Part shown: one piece after another, positions 10,114-27,379 of the stretch
Numbering within the stretch: the stretch's first letter is position 1
Layout: every line of letters begins with the position of its first letter
Assembly (NCBI GenBank): GCA_964412445.1
Contig: CAYPOR010000001.1
Span: 15,586-79,585, forward strand
Source: an uncultured Nitrospira sp.
GTDB taxonomy: Bacteria; Nitrospirota; Nitrospiria; Nitrospirales; Nitrospiraceae
Length of the DNA stretch: 64,000 bases
Reading direction: 5' to 3'
Position numbers and translations under genes: made by a program
The notes under the pieces: model-generated
Told to the model about the DNA's origin: nothing
Seen by the model: the letters and a program-made list of their open reading frames with translations, nothing else
Databases searched by the model: none

Positions 10114-10159
10114 GTGTTGTGCAACCGGAAGGACATCGAAATCGACATCGACTGCGGCG

Positions 10160-11424: not shown

Positions 11425-11433
11425 TGCTATAAT
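11425..11433 (+). promoter_or_regulatory. Extended -10 sigma70 promoter for TPR/activator operon
   Basis: TGcTATAAT about 40 nt upstream of the ATG at 11474, followed by GGGAGG. Confidence 0.5.
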
Positions 11434-11473
11434 CATCTCCGTACATACCTAGCCGGGAGGGTCACAGGTTTCG

Positions 11474-12748
11474 ATGTCTCGTCGCATGGTATCCGTGGCC
11501 ATCCTTATTGTCCCGCTGTTCGGTGCACTTCCCGGTGAGCCGTTCGCTCAAACTGCGGACGAACAGATGGCCGCACCGCCGACGCCCGAATCTCCCTCCC
11601 CCGTTCTCAATGCGGATCCCGATCCGGCCAGCCAACATCCGGTACAAGACGAACACCGCCTCGCCGAATCGACCGGGCAGGCGCGCACCGATGCGGTCGC
11701 CGAGCTGAGCGAGCTGCGCGGCGCCGTCAGAACGTTCCCGGCCGACGCGGCGGCGCGCTTGCAATTGGCGCAAGGGCTCTATCGCGTCGGCGACCTCGAC
11801 GCCGCGCTCGACGAATGCCGCATCGCGCTCAAACTGCAGCCGAATCATCCCGAGGCGCTGCTGCAACTCGGCATCGTCTTCATGACGAAACAGGACGGGC
11901 ATGCCGCCGCCACCGCCCTGATGGAGGCCATTCTCCTCAACCCCGAACTCACCCATGCGCACTACAGTCTCGGCAGCGTCCAGTACTCGCTCGGCAACCT
12001 CAAAGCCGCGGCGCAATCCTACCGGCGGGCGCTCGAACTGCAGCCGCACTTCCCCGACGCCCGCTATCGGCTCGCGCTGGTGTTGAAGCTGACGAATCGC
12101 GATCAGGAAGCGGCGCAGTTCATGGAAGAAGCGGCCGCCGGCGGAGTCCCGCAGGCGCAATTCTTTTCAGGGAACGCCTACAAAAGCGGCCAGGGTGTCG
12201 CGAAGGATCTCGGGCGGGCCGTGTTCTGGTGGACCAGAGCGGTTGAATTCGGCCACCAGCAAGCGGCGGATGCCCTCGTGAAACTCCGGCGGCAGGCGCT
12301 GGCGGCCGATCGGACCGATCGACGGCGCAACGAGGCACTCGAAGGGTTTCGCGCCTACCGCGTCCTGCTCTGGGAAGAATTCCCGGACTACAGTCGCTCA
12401 GGAGACAGCGACACGGTGGGCGTTGCGCTGCGTAAAGACAACCGGACCGATGTCGCGGTCCCGGTGCTCCTTCAAGAAAGCTATGCGCTGAGCGACGTCG
12501 CGCTGGCCGAACTCGCTGGACTGTACGAAGCCGGATGGGCCGGGCATCTCGCGCCCTTCGACAAAAAGATTTTCACCTGCATCGAGACCCTCGCCGGTGA
12601 GGGCTTCGCGCCGGCCAAGAAAGCGCTCGCGCGCATCCACGGCCTGGGCCTCGGGGTGGCTCCGGATCGGGTCAAAGCGAAAGCCTCGCTCAAAGGCCTC
12701 CCGAAGCCGGACGCAACCGCGCTGATCGACGAACTGGGCCTCCGATAA
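11474..12748 (+). CDS. Secreted tetratricopeptide / SEL1-repeat protein
   Basis: Signal-peptide-like N-terminus. TPR repeats (ARLQLAQGLY...DAALDECRIALKLQPNH; AHYSLGSVQY...AAQSYRRALELQP); SEL1 repeats (AQFFSGNAYKSGQGVAKDLGRAVFWWTRA). Confidence 0.85.
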   Translation: MSRRMVSVAILIVPLFGALPGEPFAQTADEQMAAPPTPESPSPVLNADPDPASQHPVQDEHRLAESTGQARTDAVAELSELRGAVRTFPADAAARLQLAQGLYRVGDLDAALDECRIALKLQPNHPEALLQLGIVFMTKQDGHAAATALMEAILLNPELTHAHYSLGSVQYSLGNLKAAAQSYRRALELQPHFPDARYRLALVLKLTNRDQEAAQFMEEAAAGGVPQAQFFSGNAYKSGQGVAKDLGRAVFWWTRAVEFGHQQAADALVKLRRQALAADRTDRRRNEALEGFRAYRVLLWEEFPDYSRSGDSDTVGVALRKDNRTDVAVPVLLQESYALSDVALAELAGLYEAGWAGHLAPFDKKIFTCIETLAGEGFAPAKKALARIHGLGLGVAPDRVKAKASLKGLPKPDATALIDELGLR

Positions 12749-12753
12749 TTTCC

Positions 12754-15372
12754 ATGCTCGACCGGCACACACTCTGGCGGTTCTTCATTACCTCGCTGCC
12801 GCTCCAGGCGCTTACGATCGGACTCCTCGCCGCCGTGTCAAGCCACCTGCTCTGGCTCGCCGCCCCCGCGACCTTCACCGCCCTCGACTGGACCGCCTAC
12901 GACACCTGGCTGCGCCATCGCGCACGCATTGCTGCGAGTCCCGCCCTGACGATCGTCGTACGCGACCCTGCAAGCAGCGGGCAGTTCGGAACCGGGCCGT
13001 TGGACCGGGCCGTCCTGGCTCAACTGATCGCCGCCGCCCATGACGCGGGGGCCGCCGCCATCGGTCTCGACCATCGTCTCGACCATGCCAGTCCTGCGCA
13101 TCTGGGCGGAGCCGCCAGCGATGCGCTGCTCCTGGAGGCCATCAACACCGCCGGCCGCGTCGTGACCGTCTACGATGAAGAAGCCCCGCTGGCATCGGAT
13201 TCAATTATTCAAGGACACCTCGCCCTGTCCTCTCACAGCGATCACGTGGCCCGCGCCGTTCCGCTCTTCATCGAACAAGGCTCCCGAATGACGCCGTCGT
13301 TCGGACTGGCGTTGTTTGCAAGCGCGACGAATCAGCCGCCGGCCGGCGCGACCGGCGACACACAGCTCATCAACCCGGTCGGCGGAGGTACATTGACCGA
13401 CTTGCCGGCCATCCCGCTGTCGTCGGTATGGAACGCCCTCCAACAGCACGATACGGCCGCCCTCGACGGATGGTTCAAAGGCCACGTCGTGACCATTCTG
13501 TCGCAGGCCTCCGCCTCGACACCCTGGCTGCTGCCGACCGGGCAATCCGTCGACGGCATGACCGCACACCTTCATCTCCTCAACAACCTGCTCACCGGCG
13601 ACCGGCTCTGCCGGATCGGGGCCGCCGGACGCGGCAGTCTCGCCATCGTCGTCGCGGCCCTCGTCGCCTGGTGCCTGCTGTACTTCCGCGGAACGGCCAG
13701 TCTGCTGCTCGCGGCCGGCGCCATTGCACTCTACGGCGCCGTCGCCGCCGCCGCCCTCGGCGGACTGCATCTCGTGCTGCCGGTCGCGCTGCCGCTCACC
13801 GCCGCGCTGTTTGTCCTGCTTGGCACCACCGCCTGGACGCACCTGACAGCGGGCCAGCGCATGAGGCTGCTGGAACAGGACATGCTCCGCATCCGACAGG
13901 ACACCGCCGCCGTGCGGGAAGCCCTCGTGCTGCGAGAGAATCGCGCCGAAGCCTTGCAGGAAGATCTGGACGCAGCCAAAACCGCCGCGGCGCACTCAGC
14001 CGGTAAGCGGCAGGATCTCGCCCGCACCACCGAGTCCCTGCGGGCCGAACTGGCCGAGGTGCAGGCGCAGGAACAGGCCGCCCGCGAACAGCTCGCACGA
14101 CTGGAGCGGCAACTGCACGATCTGCGAGCCGCCGGCGACGAATCCCGTGCCCTCGGCGACGCCGCGCTCAACCAGCTGGCCGTCGAATGCCGGCAACTCG
14201 GCATCATCACCGGAGACGCGTCGCTTCTGCGCCTGTTCCGGGATCTGAAGAAAGGCGCCGGATCGCCCCTGACCGTGCTGCTGCTCGGAGAACCGGGCAC
14301 CGGCAAGGAACTCCTCGCCCGCGCGGTCCACCGGCTCAGCCCCAGATCGGGCAAGACCTTCATCGCCGTCAATATGGCGGCCATCTCGCCGGAGCTGTTT
14401 GAAAGCGAACTCTTCGGCCACACCAAAGGCAGTTTCACCGGCGCCACTGTTGACCGGCGCGGCTATTTCGAACTGGCCGATCACGGCACGATCTTTCTGG
14501 ACGAAATCGGCGATCTCCGGCTGGATCACCAGAGCAAACTGCTCCGCGTGCTGCAAGAAAAGTCCTTCTATCGCGTGGGCGCGACGACGCCTATCACCGT
14601 AGATGTGCGCATCGTCGCCGCGACCAATCGCGACCTGCAACGCGGAGTCTCCGAAGGCTGGTTCCGGGAGGATCTCTATTTCCGGTTGAAAGGATTGGTG
14701 TTCAGACTGCCGCCGTTACGGGAGCGCACAGCGGACATCCCCCTGCTGGCCGACGTCTGCCTGGCCGACATCGCGACGCAGATGGGACGGCCGGTCCCGA
14801 AACTTTCCAATGAGGCGCTGCGCCTCTTGACCGAACACGACTGGCCGGGCAACGTCCGGGAGTTCCGCCATGCGCTGGAGCGGGCCGTCGCATTGAGCGA
14901 TGAGCCGGTGCTGACGAAAACGGCCTTCGCCCTGGAAGGATCCGGAGCGCCAGAACCGTCCAGCAGATCGACCCGGACGACTCTGCTGCCGGAGCCCGCC
15001 GGCGACGCCGCGGTGCTGAGCTGCCTGCGGCAGCACAGCTTCGATATGCAGGCCACGGCAAAAACGCTGGGCTGGGACCGCAGCACCGTCACCCAGCGAT
15101 TGAAAGGCCTGTGCTTCCAGGCTCTCGTCGAATCCCGAGGCGACCAGGCCAAAGCCGCGCTCGCCGTCGCCGGCGATCCAAGCCAGTTGAGGACCGTGGA
15201 ACTGAAGCTGCTGGACTACCACAGCCATCTCATGTCCGTCATTGCCCCGTTCACGAGCGCAGACAAAGCACTCCCCGACTGCAAACGACGTTTCAAGAAT
15301 CTACCGGACCGGCATTTCGCCTCGGTCGAATGGCTTGTACGCCGGCACTTTTCCCAAACCTCCCGCCCTTAA
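12754..15372 (+). CDS. Membrane-anchored sigma54-dependent activator: CHASE2 sensor + 3 TM + coiled coil + AAA+ + HTH
   Basis: TM, CHASE2-like region (IVVRD...RAVLAQLIAAAHDAGAAAIGLDHRLD), three TMs, long coiled coil, GEPGTGKELLARAVH, ESELFGHTKGSFTGA, GTIFLDEIGD, FREDLYFRL, WPGNVRE, HTH (ATAKTLGWDRSTVTQRLK). Confidence 0.88.
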   Translation: MLDRHTLWRFFITSLPLQALTIGLLAAVSSHLLWLAAPATFTALDWTAYDTWLRHRARIAASPALTIVVRDPASSGQFGTGPLDRAVLAQLIAAAHDAGAAAIGLDHRLDHASPAHLGGAASDALLLEAINTAGRVVTVYDEEAPLASDSIIQGHLALSSHSDHVARAVPLFIEQGSRMTPSFGLALFASATNQPPAGATGDTQLINPVGGGTLTDLPAIPLSSVWNALQQHDTAALDGWFKGHVVTILSQASASTPWLLPTGQSVDGMTAHLHLLNNLLTGDRLCRIGAAGRGSLAIVVAALVAWCLLYFRGTASLLLAAGAIALYGAVAAAALGGLHLVLPVALPLTAALFVLLGTTAWTHLTAGQRMRLLEQDMLRIRQDTAAVREALVLRENRAEALQEDLDAAKTAAAHSAGKRQDLARTTESLRAELAEVQAQEQAAREQLARLERQLHDLRAAGDESRALGDAALNQLAVECRQLGIITGDASLLRLFRDLKKGAGSPLTVLLLGEPGTGKELLARAVHRLSPRSGKTFIAVNMAAISPELFESELFGHTKGSFTGATVDRRGYFELADHGTIFLDEIGDLRLDHQSKLLRVLQEKSFYRVGATTPITVDVRIVAATNRDLQRGVSEGWFREDLYFRLKGLVFRLPPLRERTADIPLLADVCLADIATQMGRPVPKLSNEALRLLTEHDWPGNVREFRHALERAVALSDEPVLTKTAFALEGSGAPEPSSRSTRTTLLPEPAGDAAVLSCLRQHSFDMQATAKTLGWDRSTVTQRLKGLCFQALVESRGDQAKAALAVAGDPSQLRTVELKLLDYHSHLMSVIAPFTSADKALPDCKRRFKNLPDRHFASVEWLVRRHFSQTSRP

Positions 15373-15518
15373 TACTCCACTGCAAAGACGCCGCTTCAAA
15401 GACCTACAATGACCCCATCGCCCCATCCGGAAGACGCGCTGATGGGCGAAAGCCCTATGCCGGAGCCTCACCTGCCTGACGGCGCATGCAGTCACTTCTT
15501 ACACTCTAAAAACCCCCT

Positions 15519-15598
15519 GCCACAAATCATGGAAACCGTTACTGGAAGCCAACTTTCACCCTCTGCAGAATCGCCACAGATCATGAGGCAGTGTGGCG
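15519..15598. promoter_or_regulatory. Candidate upstream activator sequences
   Basis: Direct repeat GCCACA(A/G)ATCATG at 15519 and 15573 (54 bp apart). The second copy is part of the inverted repeat CGCCACA-N13-TGTGGCG (15572-15598), about 95-175 bp upstream of the sigma54 promoter. Confidence 0.45.
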
Positions 15599-15692
15599 GC
15601 CCAGGCCTACAGCTCGACTGACAACCGGTTCACCAAGCCGGAAACAACCTTGATTATTAGGCTCTTTTCTCATGTCATCTGATTACGTGCCA

Positions 15693-15708
15693 CGGCACCC
15701 GGATTGCA
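15693..15708 (+). promoter_or_regulatory. Sigma54 (-24/-12) promoter
   Basis: CGGCAC-CCGGA-TTGCA matches YGGCAC-N5-TTGCW with exact GG-N10-GC spacing. Lies directly downstream of a sigma54 activator gene. Confidence 0.75.
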
Positions 15709-15766
15709 CAAGTTTCCGCGCCCGCTTAGGACAATATTTATTTTTATTTATTCTTTGGATTTCTTC

Positions 15767-18700
15767 ATGACACCCTCTTCCTACAATAAAGAACTCCGCT
15801 TGACTCAGGCCTCTCTGGCTGTCACGACAACCGCCACCGCTCTGCTGATCTGGTCGACCGGTTCGGTCGCCAGAACAGCCTTCGAACAAGGACAGATCAG
15901 CCATCTGCTGGAAGCCTTGCTCTTCGGAGCCCTGGCCGGATTCCTGGTCTACGGCAATCTGTGTTACCAGTTGGCGCGGCTTGGGCAGCTGAGACGGGAC
16001 GCGGCATTCCGGATGACTGCCGCGCAGCCGGCCAGACCCTTCGATCCCCTGTCAGCTCCGGCCCTCACGGTCCTGGTGCCTTCTTACAAAGAAGAACTCC
16101 CCGTCATCCGCCAGACGCTCCTGTCCGCCGCACTGCAGAACTACCCGAACAAGCGGGTCGTGCTGCTTCTGGATAATCCGCCCGCCCCCAAGACGTTGTC
16201 TGACCGGGCCGAGCTCTGGGCGGCGCGCAATCTCCCCTTTGAATTGCAGACATTGCTTGACGAACCGGCGGCCAGGACGGACCACGCCCGCGCGGCGTTT
16301 CTGGCCAGACGATCGAGCGGCACAGTCACCATGGCCGACGAATGCGTGTGGCTCTCGGATTGTTTCCGGTCGGCCGCCCAATGGTTCGAAACCCAGGCGA
16401 AGCACTTCCCGACCGATTCGCACACCGATGTCTGGTTTGTCGAACAGATACTCAGCCGGCCGGCCGAATCCTGCCGCGAACAAGCCGCCCGATGGTTCGC
16501 CAGACGGAGAGAGCCGGCACCGGCCCCCGACGATCAACTCCTCGCCGGAATCGACGCCGCCTATGCGGAACTGGCCGCCCGTTTCCAGGTCGAGTTCGAC
16601 GTCTTCGAGCGGAAGCAGTACTGCAACCTGTCGCACGAGCCCAACAAGGCGATGAACTTGAACAGCTACCTGGGCCTGATGGGCAAGCGTGTACGCCCCG
16701 TCATGCGCCCGGCGGGGCTTGCGCTGGAAGAGTCCTCCCTGCCGAACGGCAGCCGCCTCATCGCGGATACGCCCTACGTCATCACGCTCGATGCCGACAG
16801 CCTGTTGAAACCTCACTACGCCAGCACCCTGGTGCGGCTGATGGAACAGCCGGACTATGCCCGGGTCGCCGTCGCCCAAACGCCCTACAGCGCCTTTCCC
16901 AACGCACCGGGCGTGCTGGAGCGAACCGCCGGGGCCACGACCGACATTCAATATCTGGTGCACCAGGGCTTCACCCGGTATGGCGCCACCTTCTGGGTCG
17001 GGGCCAATGCCTTGCTGAGAAAGTCGGCGCTCGACGACATCCGCAGCGAATCCGTCGAGGGCGGCCATATTGTTCGCCGCTACATCCAGGACCGGACCGT
17101 CATCGAAGACACCGAATCGACCGTCGATCTCCTCGCCAAAGGCTGGTCCCTGCACAATCACCCGGAGCGGCTGGCCTACAGCGCCACCCCGCCGGATTTC
17201 GGATCACTGGTCATCCAACGGGCCCGTTGGGCCAACGGAGGCTTGATCATTCTGCCCAAGCTGCTGTCGCTCCTGCGCCGCATGCCGAAGCGGATGAGCA
17301 CATTGCCGCAAGCCCTGCTGCAGATTCATTATCTGACCTCGCTCGCCTTCGCGCCATTGAGCGTGCTGCTCCTGCTGATCATCCCCTTTTCCTCCGAGTT
17401 GATGAATCCCTGGATGCCGCTCGCCGCGCTGCCCTACTTCGCGCTCTACGCCCGCGATCTGGCGAAGATCGGCTATCGCCCGTTCCGGGATCTGTTGCGG
17501 GTCTATGCCCTCAATCTGCTGTTGATCCCCATCCACCTCACCGGTGCAATCACGTCGATGCAGCAAGCCATCGCCGGCACGAAGATCCCGTTCCGCCGGA
17601 CACCCAAGATTTCCGGACGAACCAGAACGGCGGGGTTGGATCTGGCCCTGCAGCTGGGGATGGTCCTCACCAGCGTGACCTTGGGGCTCTTCTACGTTTC
17701 CCGGCTGCGATGGATTTCCGGAGCCTTTGCGCTGGCCAACGCCGGCCTCCTGCTTTACGGCATCAGACAATTCATCGGTTTCGCCGAAATGCAGCAGGAT
17801 CTCAGATTGAGCCTCACTGAAACCTTCGACAGCATCACCGGCAGAATACGCACAACCTGGTCGCCGCTCAGCGCCCGATCACTTGCCCCGCTGACCTTCG
17901 CGATGGAACGGAGCAAGGGGTTCGTCCTGCCCGTCCGTGCGCGGATCGCCTCGCGCCAGGCGCTCTGGAGCCTGCTGGTGGTGCTGGAGGCCTTCTCCCC
18001 GGCGCTCGCAACCGGCGAATCGACGCTTCCCCTCAATCCCGTACAAATCGAAAATCGCAAACCCGGCACCGGCGCCTGGATCCTCACCAAGCCGGCACGG
18101 AACCATGAGATCGAGGGCTATGCCTCGGCCACCAGCGTCAACCGGGGCGAAACCCTTCGCTTCTACGTCAATACACTCGCGCCGACCTACCGGCTCACGA
18201 TCTATCGTATGGGGTGGTACGGAGGCCTGGGAGCGCGGCAGATATCCGGCCCGACGGAACTACCGGGCTACCGGCAGCCGGCCCCCGTGCACGATCAGGA
18301 CACCGGATTGATCGAATGCCGGTGGGAACATCCGGCCGTACAGGCAATCCCGACCGGCGGCGAGGGAACGGAGCCCTGGGTATCGGGATACTATCTGGCC
18401 AAATTGACCGCGGAACCCACGGGAGAAGAAAGCTACATCCTGTTCATCGTGCGGGACGACCGGCGGCCTTCGACCTATCTCGTCCAGGCCAGTGTGACGA
18501 CCTATCAAGCCTACAACAATTGGGGCGGCCGCTCGCTCTACTCATTCAACAGCCCCGGAGGCCAGGCCACAAAAGTCTCGTTCAACCGTCCCTACGCAGG
18601 CAGCGCCATTCCGGCCGCGGCCACAGGCACCGGCGCGGGCGATTTCCTGATTTCCAATTCGATTCCGCCCGGCTACCAAGCCTCCCCCGCCGGCTGGGAA

Positions 18701-19474
18701 TACAACATGGTCCGCTGGCTGGAGCAGGAAGGCTACGACGTCACCTACGCCACGAATATCGACGTCCATGTGAAGCCTTCGCTGCTCGCCTCCCACAAAG
18801 CCTTTCTCTCGCTCGGACACGATGAATACTGGACCGGGGAGATGCGACGCCACATCGAGCAGGCGCGCGACCGGGGCCTGCATCTGGGCATCTTTTCATC
18901 GAATACCTGCTATTGGCAAATGCGGCTGGAGCCCAGCCGCCTCACGGGCGAACCGGACCGCACGATGGTCGCCTACAAAGAAAATACGCCGTGGCACGAT
19001 CCCTTTTCGACCGATCAGAATCCGGAGAACGATCACCTCGTGACGACACGCTGGCGCAGCGCCCCCGTGAATCGCCCGGAAGCGGATCTGCTCGGGTCCA
19101 TGTATATCGAAGTCGACCATCCCGTCGACGGCGACTTTGTGATCCAGGATGCCGAGCCCTGGCTGCTGGCGAATACCGGACTCAGTACAGGCTCTCTGCT
19201 CCCCGGCCTGGCAGGCTACGAAGTCGACGGACTGAGTACGTCCAGCCCGGTTGGCACGAGCGTCGTGGCGAGGATGGTCGATAGCCGGACGCCGGGCGCC
19301 GTCACACTCTACCGCGCCGCAAGCGGCGCGCTGGTATTTGCAACAGGATCAATGCAATGGAGCTGGGGGCTCGACGATTACCAGGCCCCGCACCTGCGCA
19401 CGTCCGTGCTAAATCCGGCGGTCCAACAGATCACCAGAAATGTGCTGGCCCGGTTCGCGCACGCAGACGACTGA
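15767..19474 (+). CDS. Processive GT2 polysaccharide synthase fused to a C-terminal N,N-dimethylformamidase large-subunit-like domain
   Basis: GT2 motifs VLVPSYKE, KAMNLN, TLDADS, QTPY, FWVGANALLR, IEDTES, QRARW, then TMs. After a signal-like segment: ENRKPG, IEGYAS..SV..GE, TYQAYNNWGGRSLY, VSFNRPY, LSLGHDEYW, GSMQWSWGLD. The in-frame TTG at 15704 lies inside the promoter, so ATG 15767 is preferred. Confidence 0.85.
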   Translation: MTPSSYNKELRLTQASLAVTTTATALLIWSTGSVARTAFEQGQISHLLEALLFGALAGFLVYGNLCYQLARLGQLRRDAAFRMTAAQPARPFDPLSAPALTVLVPSYKEELPVIRQTLLSAALQNYPNKRVVLLLDNPPAPKTLSDRAELWAARNLPFELQTLLDEPAARTDHARAAFLARRSSGTVTMADECVWLSDCFRSAAQWFETQAKHFPTDSHTDVWFVEQILSRPAESCREQAARWFARRREPAPAPDDQLLAGIDAAYAELAARFQVEFDVFERKQYCNLSHEPNKAMNLNSYLGLMGKRVRPVMRPAGLALEESSLPNGSRLIADTPYVITLDADSLLKPHYASTLVRLMEQPDYARVAVAQTPYSAFPNAPGVLERTAGATTDIQYLVHQGFTRYGATFWVGANALLRKSALDDIRSESVEGGHIVRRYIQDRTVIEDTESTVDLLAKGWSLHNHPERLAYSATPPDFGSLVIQRARWANGGLIILPKLLSLLRRMPKRMSTLPQALLQIHYLTSLAFAPLSVLLLLIIPFSSELMNPWMPLAALPYFALYARDLAKIGYRPFRDLLRVYALNLLLIPIHLTGAITSMQQAIAGTKIPFRRTPKISGRTRTAGLDLALQLGMVLTSVTLGLFYVSRLRWISGAFALANAGLLLYGIRQFIGFAEMQQDLRLSLTETFDSITGRIRTTWSPLSARSLAPLTFAMERSKGFVLPVRARIASRQALWSLLVVLEAFSPALATGESTLPLNPVQIENRKPGTGAWILTKPARNHEIEGYASATSVNRGETLRFYVNTLAPTYRLTIYRMGWYGGLGARQISGPTELPGYRQPAPVHDQDTGLIECRWEHPAVQAIPTGGEGTEPWVSGYYLAKLTAEPTGEESYILFIVRDDRRPSTYLVQASVTTYQAYNNWGGRSLYSFNSPGGQATKVSFNRPYAGSAIPAAATGTGAGDFLISNSIPPGYQASPAGWEYNMVRWLEQEGYDVTYATNIDVHVKPSLLASHKAFLSLGHDEYWTGEMRRHIEQARDRGLHLGIFSSNTCYWQMRLEPSRLTGEPDRTMVAYKENTPWHDPFSTDQNPENDHLVTTRWRSAPVNRPEADLLGSMYIEVDHPVDGDFVIQDAEPWLLANTGLSTGSLLPGLAGYEVDGLSTSSPVGTSVVARMVDSRTPGAVTLYRAASGALVFATGSMQWSWGLDDYQAPHLRTSVLNPAVQQITRNVLARFAHADD

Positions 19475-19549
19475 CTCGTCTCCGATCGAAAGAGGCCGGC
19501 GTCATGCCGGCCATCGACTCACCATCCGGCTCACGGGCAACGTAATTCT

Positions 19550-20620
19550 ATGACATCCGGAGCGACACCTCTCCAGACGACCGGACCGCTCCATGGCAGC
19601 CCTGCATCCGCCTCACACTCGGCCCGGTTCGACGTCATGCGGGTCGTCGCCTGCCTGGCGGTCATCCTGCTGCACCTGGCCGCCACCGTCGTGATGGAAC
19701 GCGAATTCCTGGGCAGCATCCACTGGCACATCTCCAATGCCATCGACGCCGCCACCCGCTGGTGCGTGCCGGTGTTCGTCATGCTGAGCGGCGCGCTGCT
19801 GCTCGACCCGCAGAAACACGCAAGCCCGCGCGAGTTCTGGACGAAGCGCATGGGCCGGCTGCTGCCCGCCATGCTCGCCTGGCCCGCCATGTATTTTGCC
19901 TGGCGCGCCTTCTACTGGCATGAGCCGCTCTCGCCCGGCACCATCGCGCACGACCTGGTCGTCGGCCGGCCCTATGTCCATCTCTACTTTTTGTTTCTTA
20001 TCGCCGGGCTCTACCTCGTCACGCCATTTCTGGCGAACACCCTCGGCACACTCAGCCTCCCGCAGCTCCGGCACCTGATTCTGATCATGGCCGGCCTGGC
20101 CATGGGAGCCAACCTGTTCGACTTTCTCGCGTCCAGCGCTTTCACCATGTTCGTGCCCTATCTGACCTACTACCTCGCCGGCTGGTATTGCGCGCGGCGG
20201 TTGCACGATCGCCCAAGCGCCTCCGCGCTGGCCATCGGCCTCGCCGCCGGCCTCACTACCGGACTGACGGCCCTCCTGGTTTCAACCAGAGGATTCGACG
20301 ACCGCTGGGCCTTCTATTTCTATGAGGACTTCAGCCCCACCGTCATGGTCATGGCCGTAAGCCTCTTTCTCCTGACTTTGCAGGGAACGATCCCGCCACG
20401 AATCGAATCTCTCGCCGGGACGCTTGCGCCGCTCACGCTCGGCGTCTACCTGGCCCACCCCATCGTGGTGGAGCTGCTGCGCTACGGCTACTACCTGGCC
20501 ATCCCGATCCTGCTCCGCCCTCCCTACTATGTACCCGTTACGTTCCTCATCACCTGCGCCATCACCTTCAGCCTCGTCGCCCTCATGCAGCGGGTGCCGG
20601 GCCTGCAACGGATCGTCTAG
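19550..20620 (+). CDS. Acyltransferase family 3 (WecH/OafA-like membrane O-acyltransferase)
   Basis: FDVMRVVACLAVILLH, RWCVPVFVMLSGALL, HLYFLFLIAGLYL, TLGVYLAHP; about 10 TM helices. Confidence 0.88.
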   Translation: MTSGATPLQTTGPLHGSPASASHSARFDVMRVVACLAVILLHLAATVVMEREFLGSIHWHISNAIDAATRWCVPVFVMLSGALLLDPQKHASPREFWTKRMGRLLPAMLAWPAMYFAWRAFYWHEPLSPGTIAHDLVVGRPYVHLYFLFLIAGLYLVTPFLANTLGTLSLPQLRHLILIMAGLAMGANLFDFLASSAFTMFVPYLTYYLAGWYCARRLHDRPSASALAIGLAAGLTTGLTALLVSTRGFDDRWAFYFYEDFSPTVMVMAVSLFLLTLQGTIPPRIESLAGTLAPLTLGVYLAHPIVVELLRYGYYLAIPILLRPPYYVPVTFLITCAITFSLVALMQRVPGLQRIV

Positions 20621-24106: not shown

Positions 24107-24151
24107 TGCGGGGCTATCCCCGCATCCCATGCTGGGCTAGGCTTCCCCGCA
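24107..24151. promoter_or_regulatory. Candidate activator-binding palindrome upstream of second sigma54 promoter
   Basis: TGCGGG-N5-CCCGCA at 24107-24123 plus a second CCCCGCAT half-site at 24144-24151, about 80-120 bp upstream of the -24 box. Confidence 0.3.
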
Positions 24152-24227
24152 TCGCCTTCACTTCTCCCCAATTCTCTGAACCCCTGAATTTCCCTCACAT
24201 CTTTCTCAACTCGTTCGCACTTTCCAC

Positions 24228-24243
24228 CGGCACTCCGGTTGCT
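24228..24243 (+). promoter_or_regulatory. Sigma54 (-24/-12) promoter
   Basis: CGGCAC-TCCGG-TTGCT with exact GG-N10-GC spacing, about 150 nt upstream of the OmpA-domain gene. Confidence 0.72.
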
Positions 24244-24391: not shown

Positions 24392-25189
24392 ATGCAGAAA
24401 GGTCCGTCCCAGGTTTCGTCAGGCAACATCACCCCCGCCGTCATGGGGCCGCAAAGAGACACCAAGGATATCGTCATCCTCTCCAGCCTCGTCCTGATCC
24501 TGGCAGGGCTCTCGGCCGTGGCCTGGATCTATACCGAATCCCGAGATCCGAAGGCCCTCACCGCGCCGACAGACAAAGTCGACTCAACCAAGGTGTCGGA
24601 ACTCCTTCAAAAGGCCAGCGGGCTCTCCCAAGCCGAGGCTTCCATCGCTCCCTCCACCCCGGTGACGGCTCCGGTCTCGACCGTGGCCGACATCATTCAC
24701 AGCGACGTCTACTTCGAAGTGGGCCGCAAGGGGTTGACGGATGAAGCCAAGGCGCAACTCGCCGCCCAGGCCGACCTGCTCAAGCAGAACCAGGACTATG
24801 CGGTGCTGATCCAGGGCTATACCGACCAGCAGGGGTCGGCCACCTACAACAAGAAACTGGGGATGCAGCGGGCCGAAACCGTGAAGCAGGAACTGCTGAA
24901 CGCCGGGGTCGCCGAACACCAGATGAAAGTCGTCAGCCTCGGTGAAGACGGCGTGCTCTGCGTAGACAACAGCGACGTCTGCCGGCACCTGAATCGGCGG
25001 GTGCACCTCGACATCCGGAAGATCGGCCAGGAGCACATGGTCATCCCGACGGTCGCCACCACCACGGCCATCGACCCGGCCGACTCAAGCATCGAGCAAC
25101 AGGCCTCGGGGCAGCCCGACGGCTCGACCGGCGCCACCTCTCCCTCTTCGCCGGCCGTCACCACGTTTGACCCGGCATCGGGCAGCTAA
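24392..25189 (+). CDS. Inner-membrane-anchored OmpA-like peptidoglycan-binding domain protein
   Basis: SD GAGGAGG; one N-terminal TM; Ser/Thr/Pro linker; VYFEVG...LT, IQGYTD..GS..YN.KLG..RA..VK, NRRV; low-complexity tail. Confidence 0.85.
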   Translation: MQKGPSQVSSGNITPAVMGPQRDTKDIVILSSLVLILAGLSAVAWIYTESRDPKALTAPTDKVDSTKVSELLQKASGLSQAEASIAPSTPVTAPVSTVADIIHSDVYFEVGRKGLTDEAKAQLAAQADLLKQNQDYAVLIQGYTDQQGSATYNKKLGMQRAETVKQELLNAGVAEHQMKVVSLGEDGVLCVDNSDVCRHLNRRVHLDIRKIGQEHMVIPTVATTTAIDPADSSIEQQASGQPDGSTGATSPSSPAVTTFDPASGS

Positions 25190-25204
25190 CGTCGATGTCT
25201 GGTT

Positions 25205-25236
25205 CTGCTGCGCGAGGAGTACACCTCGCGCAGCAG
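25205..25236. terminator. Strong intercistronic hairpin (no U-tract)
   Basis: CTGCTGCGCGAGG-AGTACA-CCTCGCGCAGCAG, perfect 13-bp stem. Confidence 0.5.
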
Positions 25237-25285
25237 CCAAATCCAGCATAGGTACCCCCATCACACTGAATCAGACGAGGACTCT

Positions 25286-27379
25286 ATGACCAGACATCTG
25301 TTTCTTCGCGCAACGTTCGCCCTGGTTCTCTCGCTGGGCGCCGGCAGCCTGTCGCTCGCGCCGGCCTGCGGGAATGAACTGGAACAACCGGACCGGACGA
25401 TTGCGTTGAGTGAAGTGAACGGCGGCAGGCTGCTCTTCAAGACGAATCAGCCCGGCCGCTTTCTTCCCGCCCCTACCCTCAAAACCGACGTCCGCATCTC
25501 CGTCACCGGCCTCATCGCCCGCGCCACCGTGTCACAGGAATTTCTGAACCCAAGTCTGGAGAAAGACGCCTGGGCTGAGGGGATCTATGTGTTCCCTCTT
25601 CCGGACACCGCCGCAGTCGATCACCTGCGCATGAAGATCGGCGAGCGGATCATCGAAGGCCAGATCAAGGAAAAGATGGAAGCCAAGAAAATCTACGAGC
25701 AGGCGAAGCAGGAGGGCAAACGGACCAGCCTGGTCGAGCAGGAGCGACCGAACATCTTTACAACCTCAGTAGCCAACATCGGCCCCGGCGAACGCATCAC
25801 CGTCGAGATCGAGTATCAGGAGACGATCCGCTACGACCAGGGGGTCTTCTCGTTGCGGTTTCCGATGGTCGTCGGCCCGCGTTACATCCCCGGGACGCCG
25901 GTGGTAATGGAGGATCAGCCGCCGGGCAACGGCTGGTCACTCGATACGGATCGCGTGCCGGATGCCTCGCGGATTACGCCGCCGGTGCAGCATCCTGATT
26001 ATGGCTCAATTAATCCGGTCAGCCTGACCATCGATCTCGCGCCGGGCTTCTCCCTCGGCAAGCTTGAATCGCCCTATCACCAGATCCTCACCATCGCCGA
26101 ACCGGACGGCCGGCAACACATCACGCTGCGCGAAGATACAGTCCCGGCCGATCGTGATTTCGTTCTGACCTGGAAACCCACGACAGGCCAGGCACCCACC
26201 CTCTCCGTCTTTCGTGAACAGCAGGGCGACGAGCAGTATGCCTTTCTGATGGCGATGCCGCCGGTCGGCTCAGATCACTCGCAAGCGCCGGTGGCGCGCG
26301 AAACGATCTTCGTCATCGACACTTCCGGCTCCATGTCCGGCACCTCGATTGAGCAGGCCAAGGCCGCGCTGCTGCTCGCCCTGAATCGCCTGACCGCGCA
26401 GGATCGCTTCAACGTGATTCAATTCAACAGCGTCACCCATGTGCTGTTTTCCCAAGCGCAGCCGGTGAAACCGGACACGCTGCGCAAGGCCGTACACTAC
26501 GTCGACAATCTGAAGGCCAACGGCGGTACGGAGATTCTCCCCGCGTTGAAAATGGCCTTGAAAGGCAGCGCGCCTGCCTCGCACCTCCGGCAAATCATCT
26601 TCCTGACGGATGGCCAGGTCGGCAACGAGGATGAACTGTTCGAGGTTATCCGCACGCAACTCGGCGCAAGCCGCCTCTTCACCATCGGCATCGGCTCGGC
26701 GCCGAACAGCCACTTCATGCACAAGGCGGCGGAATTCGGACGCGGCACCTTCACCCACATCGGCAGCACCAGCGAAGTGAAAGCGCAGATGGATGCCATC
26801 TTCCGCAAGCTGGAACGGCCTGCGCTGACGGACCTCCACATCGAGGGCTTAGACGAACAGGTCGAAATGTTTCCCTCCCGCATTCCGGATCTCTATGAGG
26901 GCGAACCGGTCCTGGCGGTCTTGAAGGGAACAGCCCTTCCGGACACCGTCACGATCCACGGCCTGATCGGGTCTGCCCCCTGGACGACATCGATCACGCT
27001 GAAACACCGTGACAGTCGTGAAGGCTTGTCCGTCTACTGGGCGCGGCAGAAGATCGCCGCCCTGATGGACCAGCAGCGCTATGGGCAAGATGAGGCTGCG
27101 ACGAGGCAAGCCGTGCTCGATGTGGCCCTCGCCCATCACCTTGTCAGCAAGTACACCAGCCTCGTTGCAGTGGATGTGACGCCGGTGCGCCCGCGCGACC
27201 AGGCGCTGCAATCCCATGCGATGAAGACGAATCTGCCGAACGGGCAGGACTATCAGACGATCTTCGGGCTGCCGCAGACCGCCACGAGCGGGCAGCTGCA
27301 AATTCTGCTGGGCCTTGCCGCGCTGCTGGCAGCCTGGCTGATGTGGAGCGTGCGGGGATATCGGAAACGCATCGCATGA
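25286..27379 (+). CDS. VIT + vWA domain sortase target protein (marine proteobacterial sortase target type)
   Basis: Signal peptide; VIT domain (V..EF.NP...WAEGIYVFPLP..AAV..L.M.IG.RII.G); MIDAS DTSGSM, IIFLTDG; C-terminal LPQTAT + hydrophobic helix + RKR. Confidence 0.9.
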   Translation: MTRHLFLRATFALVLSLGAGSLSLAPACGNELEQPDRTIALSEVNGGRLLFKTNQPGRFLPAPTLKTDVRISVTGLIARATVSQEFLNPSLEKDAWAEGIYVFPLPDTAAVDHLRMKIGERIIEGQIKEKMEAKKIYEQAKQEGKRTSLVEQERPNIFTTSVANIGPGERITVEIEYQETIRYDQGVFSLRFPMVVGPRYIPGTPVVMEDQPPGNGWSLDTDRVPDASRITPPVQHPDYGSINPVSLTIDLAPGFSLGKLESPYHQILTIAEPDGRQHITLREDTVPADRDFVLTWKPTTGQAPTLSVFREQQGDEQYAFLMAMPPVGSDHSQAPVARETIFVIDTSGSMSGTSIEQAKAALLLALNRLTAQDRFNVIQFNSVTHVLFSQAQPVKPDTLRKAVHYVDNLKANGGTEILPALKMALKGSAPASHLRQIIFLTDGQVGNEDELFEVIRTQLGASRLFTIGIGSAPNSHFMHKAAEFGRGTFTHIGSTSEVKAQMDAIFRKLERPALTDLHIEGLDEQVEMFPSRIPDLYEGEPVLAVLKGTALPDTVTIHGLIGSAPWTTSITLKHRDSREGLSVYWARQKIAALMDQQRYGQDEAATRQAVLDVALAHHLVSKYTSLVAVDVTPVRPRDQALQSHAMKTNLPNGQDYQTIFGLPQTATSGQLQILLGLAALLAAWLMWSVRGYRKRIA

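What the first reader, a model, noticed from the sequence alone, without database searches (positions are those of the whole stretch)
11425..20620. Candidate undescribed sigma54-controlled exopolysaccharide / surface-glycan system
Seen: four co-directional genes in two units: [secreted TPR/SEL1 protein + CHASE2 sigma54 activator], then sigma54 promoter, then [processive GT2 synthase-amidohydrolase-like fusion + acyltransferase-3]. Known: synthase-dependent polymers (cellulose, PNAG, Pel, alginate) combine a QxxRW GT2, a TPR scaffold and acyl-modifying enzymes, and are normally switched by c-di-GMP. Here there is no PilZ domain or BcsB-like partner. Inference: a minimal polymer system controlled transcriptionally by an extracytoplasmic signal, possibly contributing to Nitrospira microcolony matrix. 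No export pore is encoded in the locus.
Basis: partly seen in the sequence, partly recalled or inferred. Interest (0 to 1): 0.85.

Follow-up and report, generated by a model that had tools for sequence, protein, structure and literature searches.

The report
Sigma54-driven polysaccharide synthase-amidase locus
A Nitrospira gene cluster encodes a membrane sugar-polymer synthase fused to an outward-facing amidase-like domain and read from a conserved sigma-54 promoter; it probably makes a partly deacetylated chitin-like surface polymer, and it points to a possible new kind of polysaccharide deacetylase.

Summary
The four genes and the sigma-54 promoter are real.

**The synthase.** The 1235-aa protein has a BcsA-like processive GT2 core with DAD, ED, QRARW and an FRRTPK gating loop. 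A seventh membrane helix follows, then a periplasmic DMFA2_C (DUF6605) domain. The only solved relatives of that domain are amidases.

**The wider family.** The GT2 belongs to a large family with no curated name, found in many phyla. Its usual partners are CE4 deacetylases (next door or fused), GH18 chitinase with CBM5/12, and O-acyltransferases.

**The domain swap.** At the orthologous Nitrospira locus the C-terminal domain is DMFA2_C, CE4 or absent. CE4 fusions keep a vestige of DMFA2_C.

**Best reading.** A minimal synthase system for a GlcNAc-type polymer, with DMFA2_C acting as a non-homologous de-N-acetylase. No enzyme activity was tested.

**Regulation.** GGCA(C/T)-N5-TTGC plus an upstream element is conserved in 20 of 20 genus-Nitrospira loci, so sigma-54 control is well supported. 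The link to the neighbouring CHASE2 activator is not settled. The TPR-activator pair persists where the GT2 is missing. The GT2 keeps its promoter where the pair is not adjacent. A second sigma-54 operon (OmpA, sortase target, sortase) lies nearby. The TPR/Sel1 protein travels with the activator, not the synthase, so it is probably not an export scaffold.

New variant of a known kind.

The parts
11425..11433 (+). TGCTATAAT, an extended -10-like match 41 nt upstream of the TPR/Sel1 start. Possible sigma-70 promoter of the TPR-activator unit.
   Evidence: Read directly from the sequence. It is a consensus match only, and the promoter scan did not call a full -35/-10 pair.
11474..12748 (+). Periplasmic TPR + Sel1 repeat protein (424 aa). 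Signal-peptide-like N-terminus, no lipobox Cys. Forms a unit with the activator (5-nt gap).
   Evidence: Pfam TPR_11 2e-16 and Sel1 2e-4. Hydrophobic segment at aa 6-24. Always immediately upstream of the CHASE2 activator, also where the GT2 is absent.
12754..15372 (+). Membrane-bound one-component sigma-54 activator (872 aa). Order of parts: TM1, periplasmic CHASE2, a TM bundle, a coiled coil, the AAA+ domain (GEPGTGKE 512, GSFTGA 559, DEIG 583), a lid, a Fis-type HTH, and a ~90-aa tail.
   Evidence: Pfam. Motifs and hydrophobic segments. Relatives of the CHASE2 part found only in Nitrospira/Nitrospirota metagenome bins plus a few distant ones.
15573..15598 (+). Upstream-activator-site-like element GCCACAG-N4-TGAGGCAGTGTGGCG, with outer dyad GCCACA/TGTGGC, about 110 nt upstream of the -24 element.
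   Evidence: Conserved in 18 of 19 aligned Nitrospira GT2 upstream regions whose flanking DNA is otherwise unalignable. Unique in the window. It travels with the GT2 when an MFS gene is inserted (L091).
15693..15708 (+). Sigma-54 promoter CGGCAC-CCGGA-TTGCA (GG 15694-15695, GC 15706-15707). Expected transcription start near 15719.
   Evidence: Conserved in 20 of 20 genus-Nitrospira loci and absent within ~100 nt of the start in other taxa.
15767..17959 (+). GT2 synthase/translocase core (aa 1-731). Contains TM1-2; a GT-A domain with D136, DAD 342-344, ED 447-448 and QRARW 484-488; a ~190-aa helical insertion (aa ~140-330); TM3-6 with interface helices; the gating loop FRRTPK 609-614; and a cytoplasmic linker.
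   Evidence: Translation. Alignment to BcsA 4HG6/4P00/5EJ1, E~1e-12. Invariant columns of the family alignment. AF2 model pLDDT 88. Foldseek hits to BcsA, plant CesA and HAS.
17960..18016 (+). TM7 (aa 732-750, ALWSLLVVLEAFSPALATG), preceded by an Arg-rich stretch. It carries the C-terminal domain to the periplasmic side.
   Evidence: Hydropathy and charge counts. The same helix precedes the CE4 domain in CE4 fusions. It lies in the low-pLDDT stretch (model residues 667-718 = aa 702-753) of the model.
18059..19474 (+). Periplasmic DMFA2_C (DUF6605) amidase-like domain (aa ~765-1235). Y916, H1018 and E1020 correspond to DMFase Fe-site residues Y399, H519 and E521.
   Evidence: Pfam 1.9e-109. Profile hits to 6LVB and 8HUY/8I5A. 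Foldseek top hits E~1e-16. These residues are invariant in 37/37 fusions and 17/17 free-standing homologues. Residue roles from PMC7686228.
19550..20620 (+). Acyltransferase-3 family membrane O-acyltransferase (356 aa), 75 nt after the GT2 with no terminator called. An optional accessory.
   Evidence: Pfam 3e-35. Present in L001, L012, L013, L015, L018, L019, L024; absent or vestigial in L003, L004, L014, L016, L017. No terminator called. Its usual SGNH-like partner gene is missing from the window.
24108..24243 (+). Second regulatory region: a perfect palindrome GCGGGG-CTAT-CCCCGC (24108-24123) and a sigma-54 promoter GGCAC-N5-TTGC (24229-24242). A rival or additional target of the CHASE2 activator.
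   Evidence: Conserved in L003, L005, L016, L018, L090.
24392..27960 (+). OmpA-family protein; a VIT/VWA protein ending in LPQTATSG + TM + RKR (a sortase sorting signal); and a sortase. Not part of the polymer system, listed as the possible other regulon member.
   Evidence: Pfam. C-terminal signal read. Gene order kept in L005, L018, L090. A distant TPR + CHASE2-activator pair is followed directly by an OmpA gene.

Best explanation
The locus is a minimal synthase-dependent surface-glycan system.

**Proposed mechanism (shown or inferred is marked at each step)**
1. Sigma-54 RNA polymerase sits at the -24/-12 element at 15693-15708. It is opened by an enhancer-binding ATPase bound about 110 nt upstream at the conserved element 15573-15598. 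The promoter and element are shown by conservation; the identity of the activator is inferred.
2. The transcript encodes a 7-TM, BcsA-like GT2 that polymerises a UDP-sugar in the cytoplasm. It threads the chain through its own channel. The architecture and motifs are shown.
3. The sugar is most likely GlcNAc, giving a beta-linked chitin- or PNAG-like chain. This is inferred from the family's partners: CE4 de-N-acetylases, GH18 chitinase with chitin-binding modules, and O-acyltransferases.
4. TM7 holds a DMFase-type metallo-amidase domain at the periplasmic mouth of the channel. There it removes some N-acetyl groups from the emerging chain and makes it cationic. This is the job done by a CE4 domain at the same position in sister Nitrospira and in many other phyla. 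The position and catalytic residues are shown; the activity is inferred.
5. The AT3 protein, where present, adds O-acyl groups (inferred).
6. The neighbouring TPR/Sel1 protein and CHASE2 activator form an envelope-sensing, one-component sigma-54 module. It may drive this promoter, the nearby OmpA-sortase operon, or both. This is open.
For: **Synthase**
- DAD, ED and QRARW align with BcsA, and FRRTPK fits BcsA's gating-loop motif.
- AF2 model pLDDT 88; Foldseek hits BcsA, CesA and HAS.
- Catalytic residues are invariant across the family.

**Product**
- The GT2 family comprises 768 clusters at E<=1e-30 and 574+ genome hits across phyla.
- Its recurrent neighbours are CE4 (two kinds), GH18 with an intact DxxDxDxE motif plus two CBM5/12 (10 loci in 5 lineages), AT3, an SGNH-like protein, and MBOAT.
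- 5 of 9 long family members scanned are GT2-CE4 fusions, and one carries CBM5/12.
- The nearest solved relatives of the fused CE4 are peptidoglycan GlcNAc deacetylases and a chitin deacetylase.

**Amidase domain**
- The only solved relatives are DMFase and N-acetyl-beta-Phe acylase.
- Y916, H1018 and E1020 are invariant and match the Fe ligands and essential His of DMFase.
- Free-standing homologues carry signal peptides, PKD or discoidin domains.
- They sit next to DegT / hexapeptide acetyltransferase / GFO-IDH-MocA / Bac_transf genes in 11 of 54 metagenome loci.

**Domain swap**
- At the orthologous locus the domain is DMFA2_C, CE4 or absent, never both DMFA2_C and CE4.
- CE4 fusions keep about 30 aa of the DMFA2_C N-terminus behind the same TM helix.

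**Regulation**
-.
Against: - No biochemical or expression data exist. No RNA runs were found.
- The GT2 is closer in sequence to cellulose synthases than to PgaC or NodC (CelA 69.8 bits against PgaC 35.6), so the donor sugar could be glucose.
- CE4 enzymes can also be O-deacetylases.
- The third Fe ligand (DMFase Y440) could not be mapped by sequence.
- DMFase needs a small subunit, which I did not look for.
- DMFA2_C and CE4 could do different jobs.
- No route across the outer membrane is encoded.
- The window lacks the SGNH-like gene that usually follows AT3.
- The activator pair occurs without the GT2, and the GT2 without the pair.
Confidence: 0.5

Rival explanations
1. Regulatory rival. 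The TPR/Sel1 + CHASE2 activator module controls the OmpA / VIT-VWA sortase-target / sortase operon through the palindrome at 24108-24123. The GT2 promoter is served by a different enhancer-binding protein encoded elsewhere. The GT2 would then simply have been inserted between the two.
For: - The pair persists in the same chromosomal place without any GT2 in L090 and L092.
- A 37%-identical TPR + CHASE2-activator pair is followed directly by an OmpA gene.
- The OmpA promoter and its perfect palindrome are conserved in 6 loci.
- The GT2 carries its own, different upstream element, also in 6 loci with no activator within 8-10 kb.
- The two upstream elements share no obvious half-site.
Against: - In about 16 of 18 Nitrospira loci that hold the pair, the GT2 is the next co-directional transcription unit.
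- Activators usually act on adjacent promoters.
- The activator could bind two kinds of site, or both operons could form one cell-surface regulon.
Confidence: 0.4
2. The GT2 makes a beta-glucan (cellulose-, curdlan- or mixed-linkage-like). The periplasmic DMFA2_C domain is then not a deacetylase but a BcsB-like guide or carbohydrate-binding domain, or a glycan hydrolase.
For: - The closest solved structures and the best NCBIfam hit are cellulose synthases.
- An FxVTxK-type gating loop is present.
- There is no BcsB, and a membrane-anchored periplasmic domain sits where BcsB would.
Against: - Most family members function without any C-terminal domain.
- The Fe-site residues of the amidase fold are invariant.
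- The domain is replaced by a CE4 with intact DD / HxxxH / RxPY motifs.
- The family's hydrolase partner is GH18 + CBM5/12, not GH8 or GH5.
Confidence: 0.2
3. In diderm Nitrospira the polymer stays in the periplasm, as an osmoregulated-periplasmic-glucan-like envelope glycan with acyl substituents, rather than forming an extracellular matrix.
For: - No outer-membrane pore, TPR-porin or secretin is encoded in the locus, the window or related loci.
- The only NCBIfam hit of the AT3 is MdoC/OpgC, and it is weak (21.5 bits).
Against: - No OpgH model hit at E<=0.001.
- The same GT2 family is common in monoderm Actinobacteria and Patescibacteria, with secreted chitinase-like partners.
Confidence: 0.1
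4. The GT2, amidase and acyltransferase make a Nod-factor-like modified chito-oligosaccharide signal rather than a polymer.
For: The toolkit of a GT2, a de-N-acetylase and an acyltransferase formally parallels NodC / NodB / NodA-NodX (own knowledge). There is a weak NodC hit, 2.9e-4.
Against: - The amidase domain is periplasmic, whereas NodB is cytoplasmic.
- AT3 enzymes are O-acyltransferases.
- The GT2 has a full BcsA-like channel with a gating loop.
Confidence: 0.05

Closest known systems
Bacterial cellulose synthase BcsA (Bcs system; PDB 4HG6, 4P00, 5EJ1)
   Same: - Membrane-integrated processive GT2 whose own TM helices form the channel.
- Shared motifs: VPSY(K/N)EE, DAD, TED/ED, Q(R)xRW, the QTP(H/Y) stretch, the F/W-x-G-(S/A) motif, and an FxVTxK-type gating loop.
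- Best sequence and fold match.
   Different: - Two rather than four N-terminal TM helices.
- A ~190-aa helical insertion inside the GT-A domain.
- No PilZ domain; no BcsB, BcsC or BcsZ.
- 69.8 bits against a 699-bit family cut-off.
- Its partners point to an N-acetylated sugar.
PNAG systems PgaABCD / IcaADBC
   Same: The same functional toolkit: a GT2 synthase, an extracytoplasmic de-N-acetylase, and an AT3-family O-acyltransferase. That IcaC is an AT3 member is my own knowledge. Partial deacetylation gives an adhesive cationic polymer (principle reviewed in PMC6307706).
   Different: - The GT2 is not a PgaC/IcaA equivalog (35.6 against 422 bits).
- The deacetylase here is a DMFase-fold domain fused to the synthase, not CE4.
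- No PgaA porin, no PgaD/IcaD.
- The family's hydrolase partner is GH18 (chitin-type) rather than GH153 or GH20.
N,N-dimethylformamidase large subunit (6LVB) and N-acetyl-(R)-beta-phenylalanine acylase (8HUY, 8I5A)
   Same: - Same fold (Foldseek E~1e-16).
- Shared motifs (T/S)YxAY(N/A)N and GxH(P/D)EY, which carry Fe ligands Y399 and E521 and the essential H519.
- Both are amide-bond hydrolases, and one is a de-N-acetylase.
   Different: - About 14-15% identity.
- Those enzymes are soluble and cytoplasmic and act on small molecules. Here the domain is periplasmic and tethered to a glycan synthase.
- The N-terminal half of those ~770-aa enzymes is missing.
- A small-subunit partner was not looked for.
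PEP-CTERM regulatory module PrsK/PrsR/PrsT (Haft et al. 2006, PMC1569441)
   Same: A TPR protein plus a sigma-54 enhancer-binding protein, with conserved upstream-element and -24/-12 promoters in front of cell-surface genes, linked to EPS loci and to a protein-sorting transpeptidase. Here a sortase operon with its own sigma-54 promoter lies next door.
   Different: - Here it is a one-component system: the CHASE2 sensor is fused to the AAA+ domain, with no receiver domain and no histidine kinase.
- Scores are below the PrsR and PrsT cut-offs (282.7 against 502.6; 53.7 against 312.2).
- The sorting enzyme is a sortase, not an exosortase.
Streptomyces MatB (own knowledge, not tested here)
   Same: A single polypeptide combining a GT2 synthase with an extracytoplasmic CE4 deacetylase for a poly-GlcNAc adhesin. 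It is a precedent for the synthase-deacetylase fusions seen in this family.
   Different: I could not compare sequences. As I recall, MatB's domain order and its PgaC-like GT2 differ from the BcsA-like core with a C-terminal domain seen here.

Membership tests
Cellulose synthase BcsA / Bcs system | GT2 with the D, DxD, (T)ED and Q(Q/R)xRW catalytic motifs | tested here: met
   D136, DAD 342-344, ED 447-448 and QRARW 484-488 align with BcsA.
Cellulose synthase BcsA / Bcs system | FxVTxK gating loop between interface helix 3 and the next TM helix (the definition is from my own knowledge of BcsA structures) | tested here: met
   FRRTPK at 609-614; F609, R611, P613 and K614 are invariant in the family.
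Cellulose synthase BcsA / Bcs system | C-terminal PilZ domain for c-di-GMP activation | tested here: not met
   No PilZ hit in Pfam. The C-terminus is TM7 plus DMFA2_C.
Cellulose synthase BcsA / Bcs system | BcsB partner, with BcsC and BcsZ in the operon | tested here: not met
   None found in the locus, the window or 80 related loci.
Cellulose synthase BcsA / Bcs system | Score above the NCBIfam CelA (TIGR03030) cut-off | tested here: not met
   69.8 bits against a cut-off of 699.1.
PNAG synthase systems (Pga / Ica) | PgaC/IcaA-type GT2 (TIGR03937) | tested here: not met
   35.6 bits against a cut-off of 422.3.
PNAG synthase systems (Pga / Ica) | CE4 de-N-acetylase (PgaB/IcaB) | tested here: not met
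   There is no CE4 in the window. A CE4 occupies the same position in orthologous loci L005 and L018, and sits next to or is fused to the GT2 in other phyla.
PNAG synthase systems (Pga / Ica) | AT3-family O-acyltransferase (IcaC-like) | tested here: met
   Acyl_transf_3 3.3e-35. That IcaC belongs to AT3 is my own knowledge.
PNAG synthase systems (Pga / Ica) | Outer-membrane porin with TPR domain (PgaA) | tested here: not met
   No porin found. The TPR/Sel1 protein has no beta-barrel part and travels with the activator.
Sigma-54-dependent transcription unit | GG at -24 and GC at -12 with the canonical spacing, upstream of the gene | tested here: met
   CGGCAC-N5-TTGCA at 15693-15708, conserved in 20 of 20 genus-Nitrospira loci.
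Sigma-54-dependent transcription unit | Enhancer-binding AAA+ protein with a GAFTGA loop and a DNA-binding domain | tested here: met
   Sigma54_activat 2.5e-63, GSFTGA at 559, HTH_8 at 757-784 (weak).
Sigma-54-dependent transcription unit | Conserved upstream activator site 80-150 nt upstream of the promoter | tested here: met
   The element at 15573-15598 is conserved in 18 of 19 loci. Which protein binds it cannot be tested with these tools.
Sigma-54-dependent transcription unit | rpoN present in the genome; transcription depends on RpoN and on the adjacent activator | not testable with these tools
   No RpoN-box ORF in the window. The whole genome is not available and no RNA runs were found.
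DMFase-type amidases (Pfam DMFA2_C / DUF6605) | Pfam DMFA2_C above the gathering score, and the same fold | tested here: met
   367 bits against a cut-off of 27. Foldseek to 8HUY and 6LVB, E 1e-16 to 1e-15.
DMFase-type amidases (Pfam DMFA2_C / DUF6605) | 2-Tyr-1-carboxylate Fe site (Y399, Y440, E521) and the essential H519 | tested here: inconclusive
   Y916, E1020 and H1018 align with Y399, E521 and H519 and are invariant. The Y440 equivalent was not aligned; the invariant Y943 or Y925 are candidates.
DMFase-type amidases (Pfam DMFA2_C / DUF6605) | Small alpha subunit partner | not tested
   I had no sequence of the small subunit to search with.
Osmoregulated periplasmic glucan system (OpgH / OpgC) | OpgH-type GT2 and OpgC-type AT3 above the family cut-offs | tested here: not met
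   No OpgH model hit at E<=0.001. MdoC scores 21.5 bits against 338.
PEP-CTERM regulators PrsR / PrsT | Scores above the TIGR02915 and TIGR02917 cut-offs; a receiver domain on the activator | tested here: not met
   282.7 against 502.6, and 53.7 against 312.2. The N-terminus is CHASE2, not a receiver.

The most novel reading that the evidence does not exclude
DMFA2_C/DUF6605 is a new, CE4-unrelated family of iron-dependent polysaccharide de-N-acetylases. In that case the BcsA-like GT2 it is fused to would represent a pan-bacterial, so far unnamed family of chitin/chitosan-type exopolysaccharide synthases. In Nitrospira this family would be switched on by an envelope-sensing, membrane-bound CHASE2 sigma-54 activator working with a periplasmic TPR/Sel1 partner.
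Probability: 0.3. Interest if true: 0.8.

Novelty: new variant of a known kind. Interest (0 to 1): 0.62.

Why it matters
**The polymer.** Nitrospira are the main nitrite oxidisers in wastewater treatment, biofilters and soils, and they live in tight microcolonies. This window's sequence recurs in biofilter and bioreactor metagenomes. A defined, inducible matrix-polymer locus would give a handle on how these aggregates form.

**The synthase family.** The GT2 family has hundreds of 50%-identity clusters in many phyla. It has no curated family model or literature that I could find. Its partners suggest bacteria make chitin/chitosan-like exopolysaccharides far more widely than is recognised.

**The amidase domain.** The swap of DMFA2_C for CE4 at one orthologous position gives a concrete, testable function for a large domain of unknown function. 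That domain is common in Nitrospira and cyanobacteria. Its only characterised relatives degrade a synthetic solvent or a non-natural amino-acid derivative.

**The activator.** A membrane-embedded CHASE2-AAA+ enhancer-binding protein is an unusual one-component route from the envelope to sigma-54. I found no paper that mentions this combination.

Tried and rejected
1. **TTG 15704 as the start.** Rejected in favour of ATG 15767, which gives the 1235-aa length shared by homologues.
2. **The 1051-aa '+' ORF at 7771-10926.** It has no Pfam hit and an Arg/Pro-rich translation, so it is mostly spurious. Only its last ~210 codons match a conserved small secreted-protein gene.
3. **phmmer of the whole fusion against PDB.** It found only BcsA. 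DMFase appeared only with a family profile.
4. **Mapping DMFase Y440 by sequence.** This failed.
5. **RNA evidence.** Runs holding the sequence are DNA metagenomes or of unknown type. Laying contigs confirmed the sequence but gave nothing on transcription.
6. **Terminator and sigma-70 scans.** Uninformative.
7. **Literature.** No paper links dimethylformamidase-like domains or DUF6605 to glycans, or CHASE2 to sigma-54. The 'bacterial chitin synthase' paper (PMC5122149) concerns a different, eukaryote-derived CHS family. The Actinoplanes EPS paper (PMC13390465) concerns Wzx/Wzy and GtrA clusters.
8. **Search with the CHASE2 part.** It returned only 62 mostly partial proteins, so absence of the activator from genomes such as N. 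japonica cannot be concluded.
9. **The GT2-type upstream element at the OmpA promoter.** Looked for and not found.
10. **OPG, Nod-factor and cellulose readings.** Considered and ranked lower; see the rival explanations.

Full report
**1. What is there**

| Gene | Coordinates | Size | Evidence |
|---|---|---|---|
| TPR + Sel1 protein | 11474-12748 | 424 aa | Signal-peptide-like N-terminus |
| CHASE2 + sigma-54 AAA+ + lid + weak Fis-type HTH activator | 12754-15372 | 872 aa | Walker A 512, GSFTGA 559, Walker B 583 |
| GT2 fused to DMFA2_C | 15767-19474 | 1235 aa | Real start is ATG 15767; PF20254 E=1.9e-109 |
| Acyl_transf_3 | 19550-20620 | 356 aa | Pfam 3.3e-35 |

- CGGCAC-N5-TTGCA lies at 15693-15708, between the activator and the GT2.
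- There is no PilZ, BcsB-like or pore gene in the locus.
- The rest of the window holds ordinary Nitrospira genes. These include the Pup-proteasome, HtrA, NUDIX, cytochrome c and bd-like oxidases, cytochrome bc, dxs/ispG, Omp85, squalene-hopene cyclase and SMC.
- Independent biofilter and bioreactor metagenomes hold the same sequence.

**2. The synthase**

The N-terminal 730 residues are a processive, channel-forming GT2.

- phmmer finds only bacterial cellulose synthases in the PDB (E~1e-12). The alignment pairs VLVPSYKEE, DAD, (T)ED, QRARW and the FWVGA/FFCGS stretch.
- FRRTPK at 609-614 fits BcsA's FxVTxK gating loop. That definition is my own knowledge.
- An AlphaFold model of residues 36-1235 is confident (mean pLDDT 88.3). 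Foldseek returns BcsA, plant CesA and hyaluronan synthases for this part.
- Hydropathy, helix positions and charge distribution give seven TM helices, with the N-terminus inside and the C-terminus outside. They are two helices before the GT-A domain, four after it, a ~60-residue basic cytoplasmic linker, then TM7 at aa 732-750.
- A ~190-residue helical insertion sits between the first Asp and the DAD motif. It is conserved across the family.
- No NCBIfam model comes near its cut-off: CelA 69.8 against 699, PgaC 35.6 against 422.

**3. The family and its partners**

The GT2 core is not peculiar to Nitrospira.

- A genome scan found 574+ relatives at 40-50% identity over ~680 residues. They occur in Gamma-, Beta-, Alpha- and Deltaproteobacteria, Chlorobiaceae, Actinobacteria, Planctomycetes, Chloroflexi, Acidobacteria, Rokubacteria and Patescibacteria.
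- An exhaustive profile search counted 768 50%-identity clusters at E<=1e-30.

I clustered the neighbouring ORFs of 80 loci and scanned representatives. The recurrent partners are:

| Partner | Loci |
|---|---|
| SGNH-like ~420-aa membrane protein (GDSF ... DRHPN) | 15 |
| GH18 with intact DxxDxDxE plus two CBM5/12 chitin-binding modules | 10, in five lineages |
| AT3 | 10 |
| CE4 polysaccharide deacetylase, first kind | 8 |
| CE4 polysaccharide deacetylase, second kind | 6 |
| MBOAT plus a partner gene | 6 |

- No porin, TPR scaffold or BcsB appears among them.
- Of nine long family members scanned, five are GT2-CE4 fusions, one of them with two CE4 domains. One ends in CBM5/12.
- The fused CE4 keeps the DD, HxxxH and RxPY motifs.
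- Its nearest solved relatives are peptidoglycan GlcNAc deacetylases and an Aspergillus chitin deacetylase.
- This toolkit is the one known from PNAG (ica/pga), except that the hydrolase is chitin-type.
- I infer a beta-linked GlcNAc-type polymer, perhaps chitin/chitosan-like. This rests on association, not on an assay.

**4. The C-terminal domain**

- A profile of the domain hits only the large subunit of dimethylformamidase (6LVB, 1.2e-10) and N-acetyl-(R)-beta-phenylalanine acylase (8HUY/8I5A). Foldseek ranks them first, E~1e-16. Both are amide hydrolases, and one removes N-acetyl groups.
- DMFase binds Fe3+ through Y399, Y440 and E521 and needs H519 (PMC7686228).
- The motifs TTYQAYNN and GHDEYW align with DMFase SYLAYAN and SHPEY, and with the acylase's TYQAYAN and THPEY.
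- Y916, H1018 and E1020 are invariant in 37/37 fusions and 17/17 free-standing homologues. The Y440 equivalent was not mapped.
- Free-standing homologues are ~500 aa and 55-58% identical. They are abundant in Nitrospira and cyanobacteria, and carry signal peptides, PKD or discoidin domains. The family is therefore extracytoplasmic, in agreement with the TM7 topology.
- In metagenome contigs the domain also occurs inside giant secreted proteins.
- In 11 of 54 loci with enough flank it lies beside a DegT aminotransferase. In 5-6 of those loci it also lies beside a hexapeptide acetyltransferase, a GFO/IDH/MocA oxidoreductase and a Bac_transf initiating transferase. That gene set makes N-acetylated amino-sugar glycans.

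**5. The domain swap**

- Within Nitrospira the locus keeps one chromosomal context: Pup ligase, proteasome ATPase, HtrA, YjbQ, HIT, TPR, activator, GT2.
- The GT2's C-terminus is DMFA2_C in most loci, CE4 in L005 and L018, and absent in L014 and L015. DMFA2_C and CE4 never occur together.
- CE4 fusions such as P0074 retain, behind the same TM7, about 30 residues of the DMFA2_C N-terminus (QxENxxxG..W.LTK....EIEG). So does the domain-less NS4 protein.
- So the DMFA2_C fusion is ancestral in this clade, and CE4 replaced it in place.
- A proven polysaccharide deacetylase substituting for an amidase-fold domain at one tethered position is the strongest argument that DMFA2_C does the same job. It remains an inference.

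**6. The acyltransferase**

- AT3 follows the GT2 after 75 nt with no terminator called. It is present in only about half of the related loci.
- In close relatives an SGNH-like gene follows it. That gene is missing from the window.
- O-acylation of the polymer is the likely role. Whether it works here without the SGNH-like partner is unknown.

**7. Regulation**

- Motif counts alone are at chance level, but conservation is decisive.
- GGCA(C/T)-N5-TTGC sits 24-65 nt before the GT2 start in all 20 genus-Nitrospira loci. None of about 64 loci from other taxa has it within about 100 nt of the start; three have a match further upstream, at -117 to -373.
- About 110 nt upstream lies a second conserved element, GCCACAG-N3-4-TGAGGCAGTGTGGC, in otherwise unalignable DNA. 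It follows the GT2 when an MFS gene is inserted (L091).
- Sigma-54-dependent transcription is therefore well supported. It also fits the known bias of sigma-54 towards cell-exterior functions (PMC3162934).

The activator's identity is not settled.

- For the neighbouring CHASE2 protein: about 16 of 18 loci that hold the pair have the GT2 as the next co-directional unit.
- Against:
  - The TPR-activator pair persists in place without any GT2 (L090, L092).
  - A 37%-identical pair is followed directly by an OmpA gene.
  - The GT2 keeps its promoter and element with no activator within 8-10 kb (L004, L006, L020-L023).
  - A second sigma-54 promoter (24229-24242) heads an OmpA / VIT-VWA (LPQTA sorting signal) / sortase operon. 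It has a different, perfectly palindromic element (24108-24123) and is conserved in six loci.
- The TPR/Sel1 gene is always 3-9 nt from, or overlapping, the activator gene, and never accompanies the GT2 elsewhere. I therefore read it as the periplasmic partner of the CHASE2 sensor, not as an export scaffold.
- The closest known analogue is PrsK/PrsR/PrsT of the PEP-CTERM system. That module combines a TPR protein, a sigma-54 activator, surface proteins, a sorting transpeptidase and EPS (PMC1569441). Membership is excluded by scores and by the absence of a receiver domain.

**8. Most likely mechanism**

1. An envelope signal activates a sigma-54 enhancer-binding ATPase. It is sensed either by the CHASE2-TPR/Sel1 module or by another activator.
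2. The GT2-AT3 unit is transcribed.
3. The GT2 polymerises and translocates a GlcNAc-type chain.
4. The tethered periplasmic DMFase-fold domain partly de-N-acetylates the chain as it emerges.
5. AT3 may O-acylate it.
6. How, or whether, the chain crosses the outer membrane is unknown.

| Claim | Confidence |
|---|---|
| Processive synthase | ~0.85 |
| Sigma-54 control | ~0.85 |
| GlcNAc-type product | ~0.55 |
| DMFA2_C acts as a deacetylase | ~0.45 |
| The adjacent activator is the regulator | ~0.45 |

**9. Novelty**

- The overall kind, a synthase-dependent polymer with a deacetylase and an acyltransferase, is known.
- Three things are new: the GT2 family, the DMFase-fold domain standing in for CE4, and the membrane-bound CHASE2 sigma-54 activator with a TPR/Sel1 partner.
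- I found no literature on any of the three.
The system is minimal and its logic is familiar, and the regulatory link, the product and the activity are all still inferred.

Noticed in passing
window 24108-27960: A second conserved sigma-54 promoter (GGCAC-N5-TTGC, 24229-24242) with a perfect palindrome GCGGGG-CTAT-CCCCGC (24108-24123) heads an operon of three genes. They are an OmpA-family protein, a VIT/VWA protein ending in LPQTATSG + TM + RKR (a sortase sorting signal), and a sortase. The promoter, palindrome and gene order recur in L003, L005, L016, L018 and L090.
   Followed up: partly
window 12754-15372: The activator is a membrane-embedded, one-component enhancer-binding protein with a periplasmic CHASE2 sensor and no receiver domain. 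No paper in the library mentions CHASE2 together with sigma-54. Relatives of the CHASE2 part were found almost only in Nitrospirota.
   Followed up: partly
window 16180-16760 (aa ~140-330 of the GT2): A ~190-residue, four-helix insertion lies inside the GT-A domain between the first Asp and the DAD motif. It has invariant residues across phyla (FERKxYxNLSHEPNKAMNLNS). From my own knowledge, it occupies the same place as the plant-conserved region of plant CesA. Its role (oligomerisation or regulation) is unknown.
   Followed up: no
L001 15113-16384; absent from window 20621-21300: A ~420-aa membrane protein with SGNH-like GDSF and DRHPN motifs and no Pfam hit follows AT3 in close relatives. 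It accompanies this GT2 family in 15 loci, 9 of them outside Nitrospira, but it is deleted in the window.
   Followed up: partly
P0074, P0069 (L015); compare window 18017-18130: GT2-CE4 fusions and a domain-less GT2 keep a ~30-residue vestige of the DMFA2_C N-terminus behind TM7. This shows in-place replacement or deletion of the domain.
   Followed up: yes
window 7771-10926 (+): The 1051-aa ORF is mostly a spurious high-GC antisense frame over HtrA, YjbQ and a hypothetical gene on the minus strand. Only its last ~210 codons (a small secreted protein, conserved in L001, L003 and L005) look real.
   Followed up: partly
L165 2391-10214; L171 6389-11395; L161 4743-10994: In soil metagenome contigs the DMFA2_C domain is embedded in giant (1669-2608 aa) proteins with WD40 propellers, DUF4082, Big_7 and CarboxypepD_reg domains. 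These lie next to WbpB/E/D-like amino-sugar genes.
   Followed up: partly
window 23078-23682 (-): Two small overlapping ORFs of 93 and 108 aa. The 93-aa product looks like a BrnT/DUF497-type toxin, and the 108-aa one like its antitoxin. This is a resemblance by eye only and was not scanned.
   Followed up: no
L058 about 4676-4693: An Anaerolineae homologue of the GT2 has a perfect TGGCAC-N5-TTGCA 117 nt upstream of its start. It is the only strong sigma-54-type match outside Nitrospira among the 80 loci.
   Followed up: no
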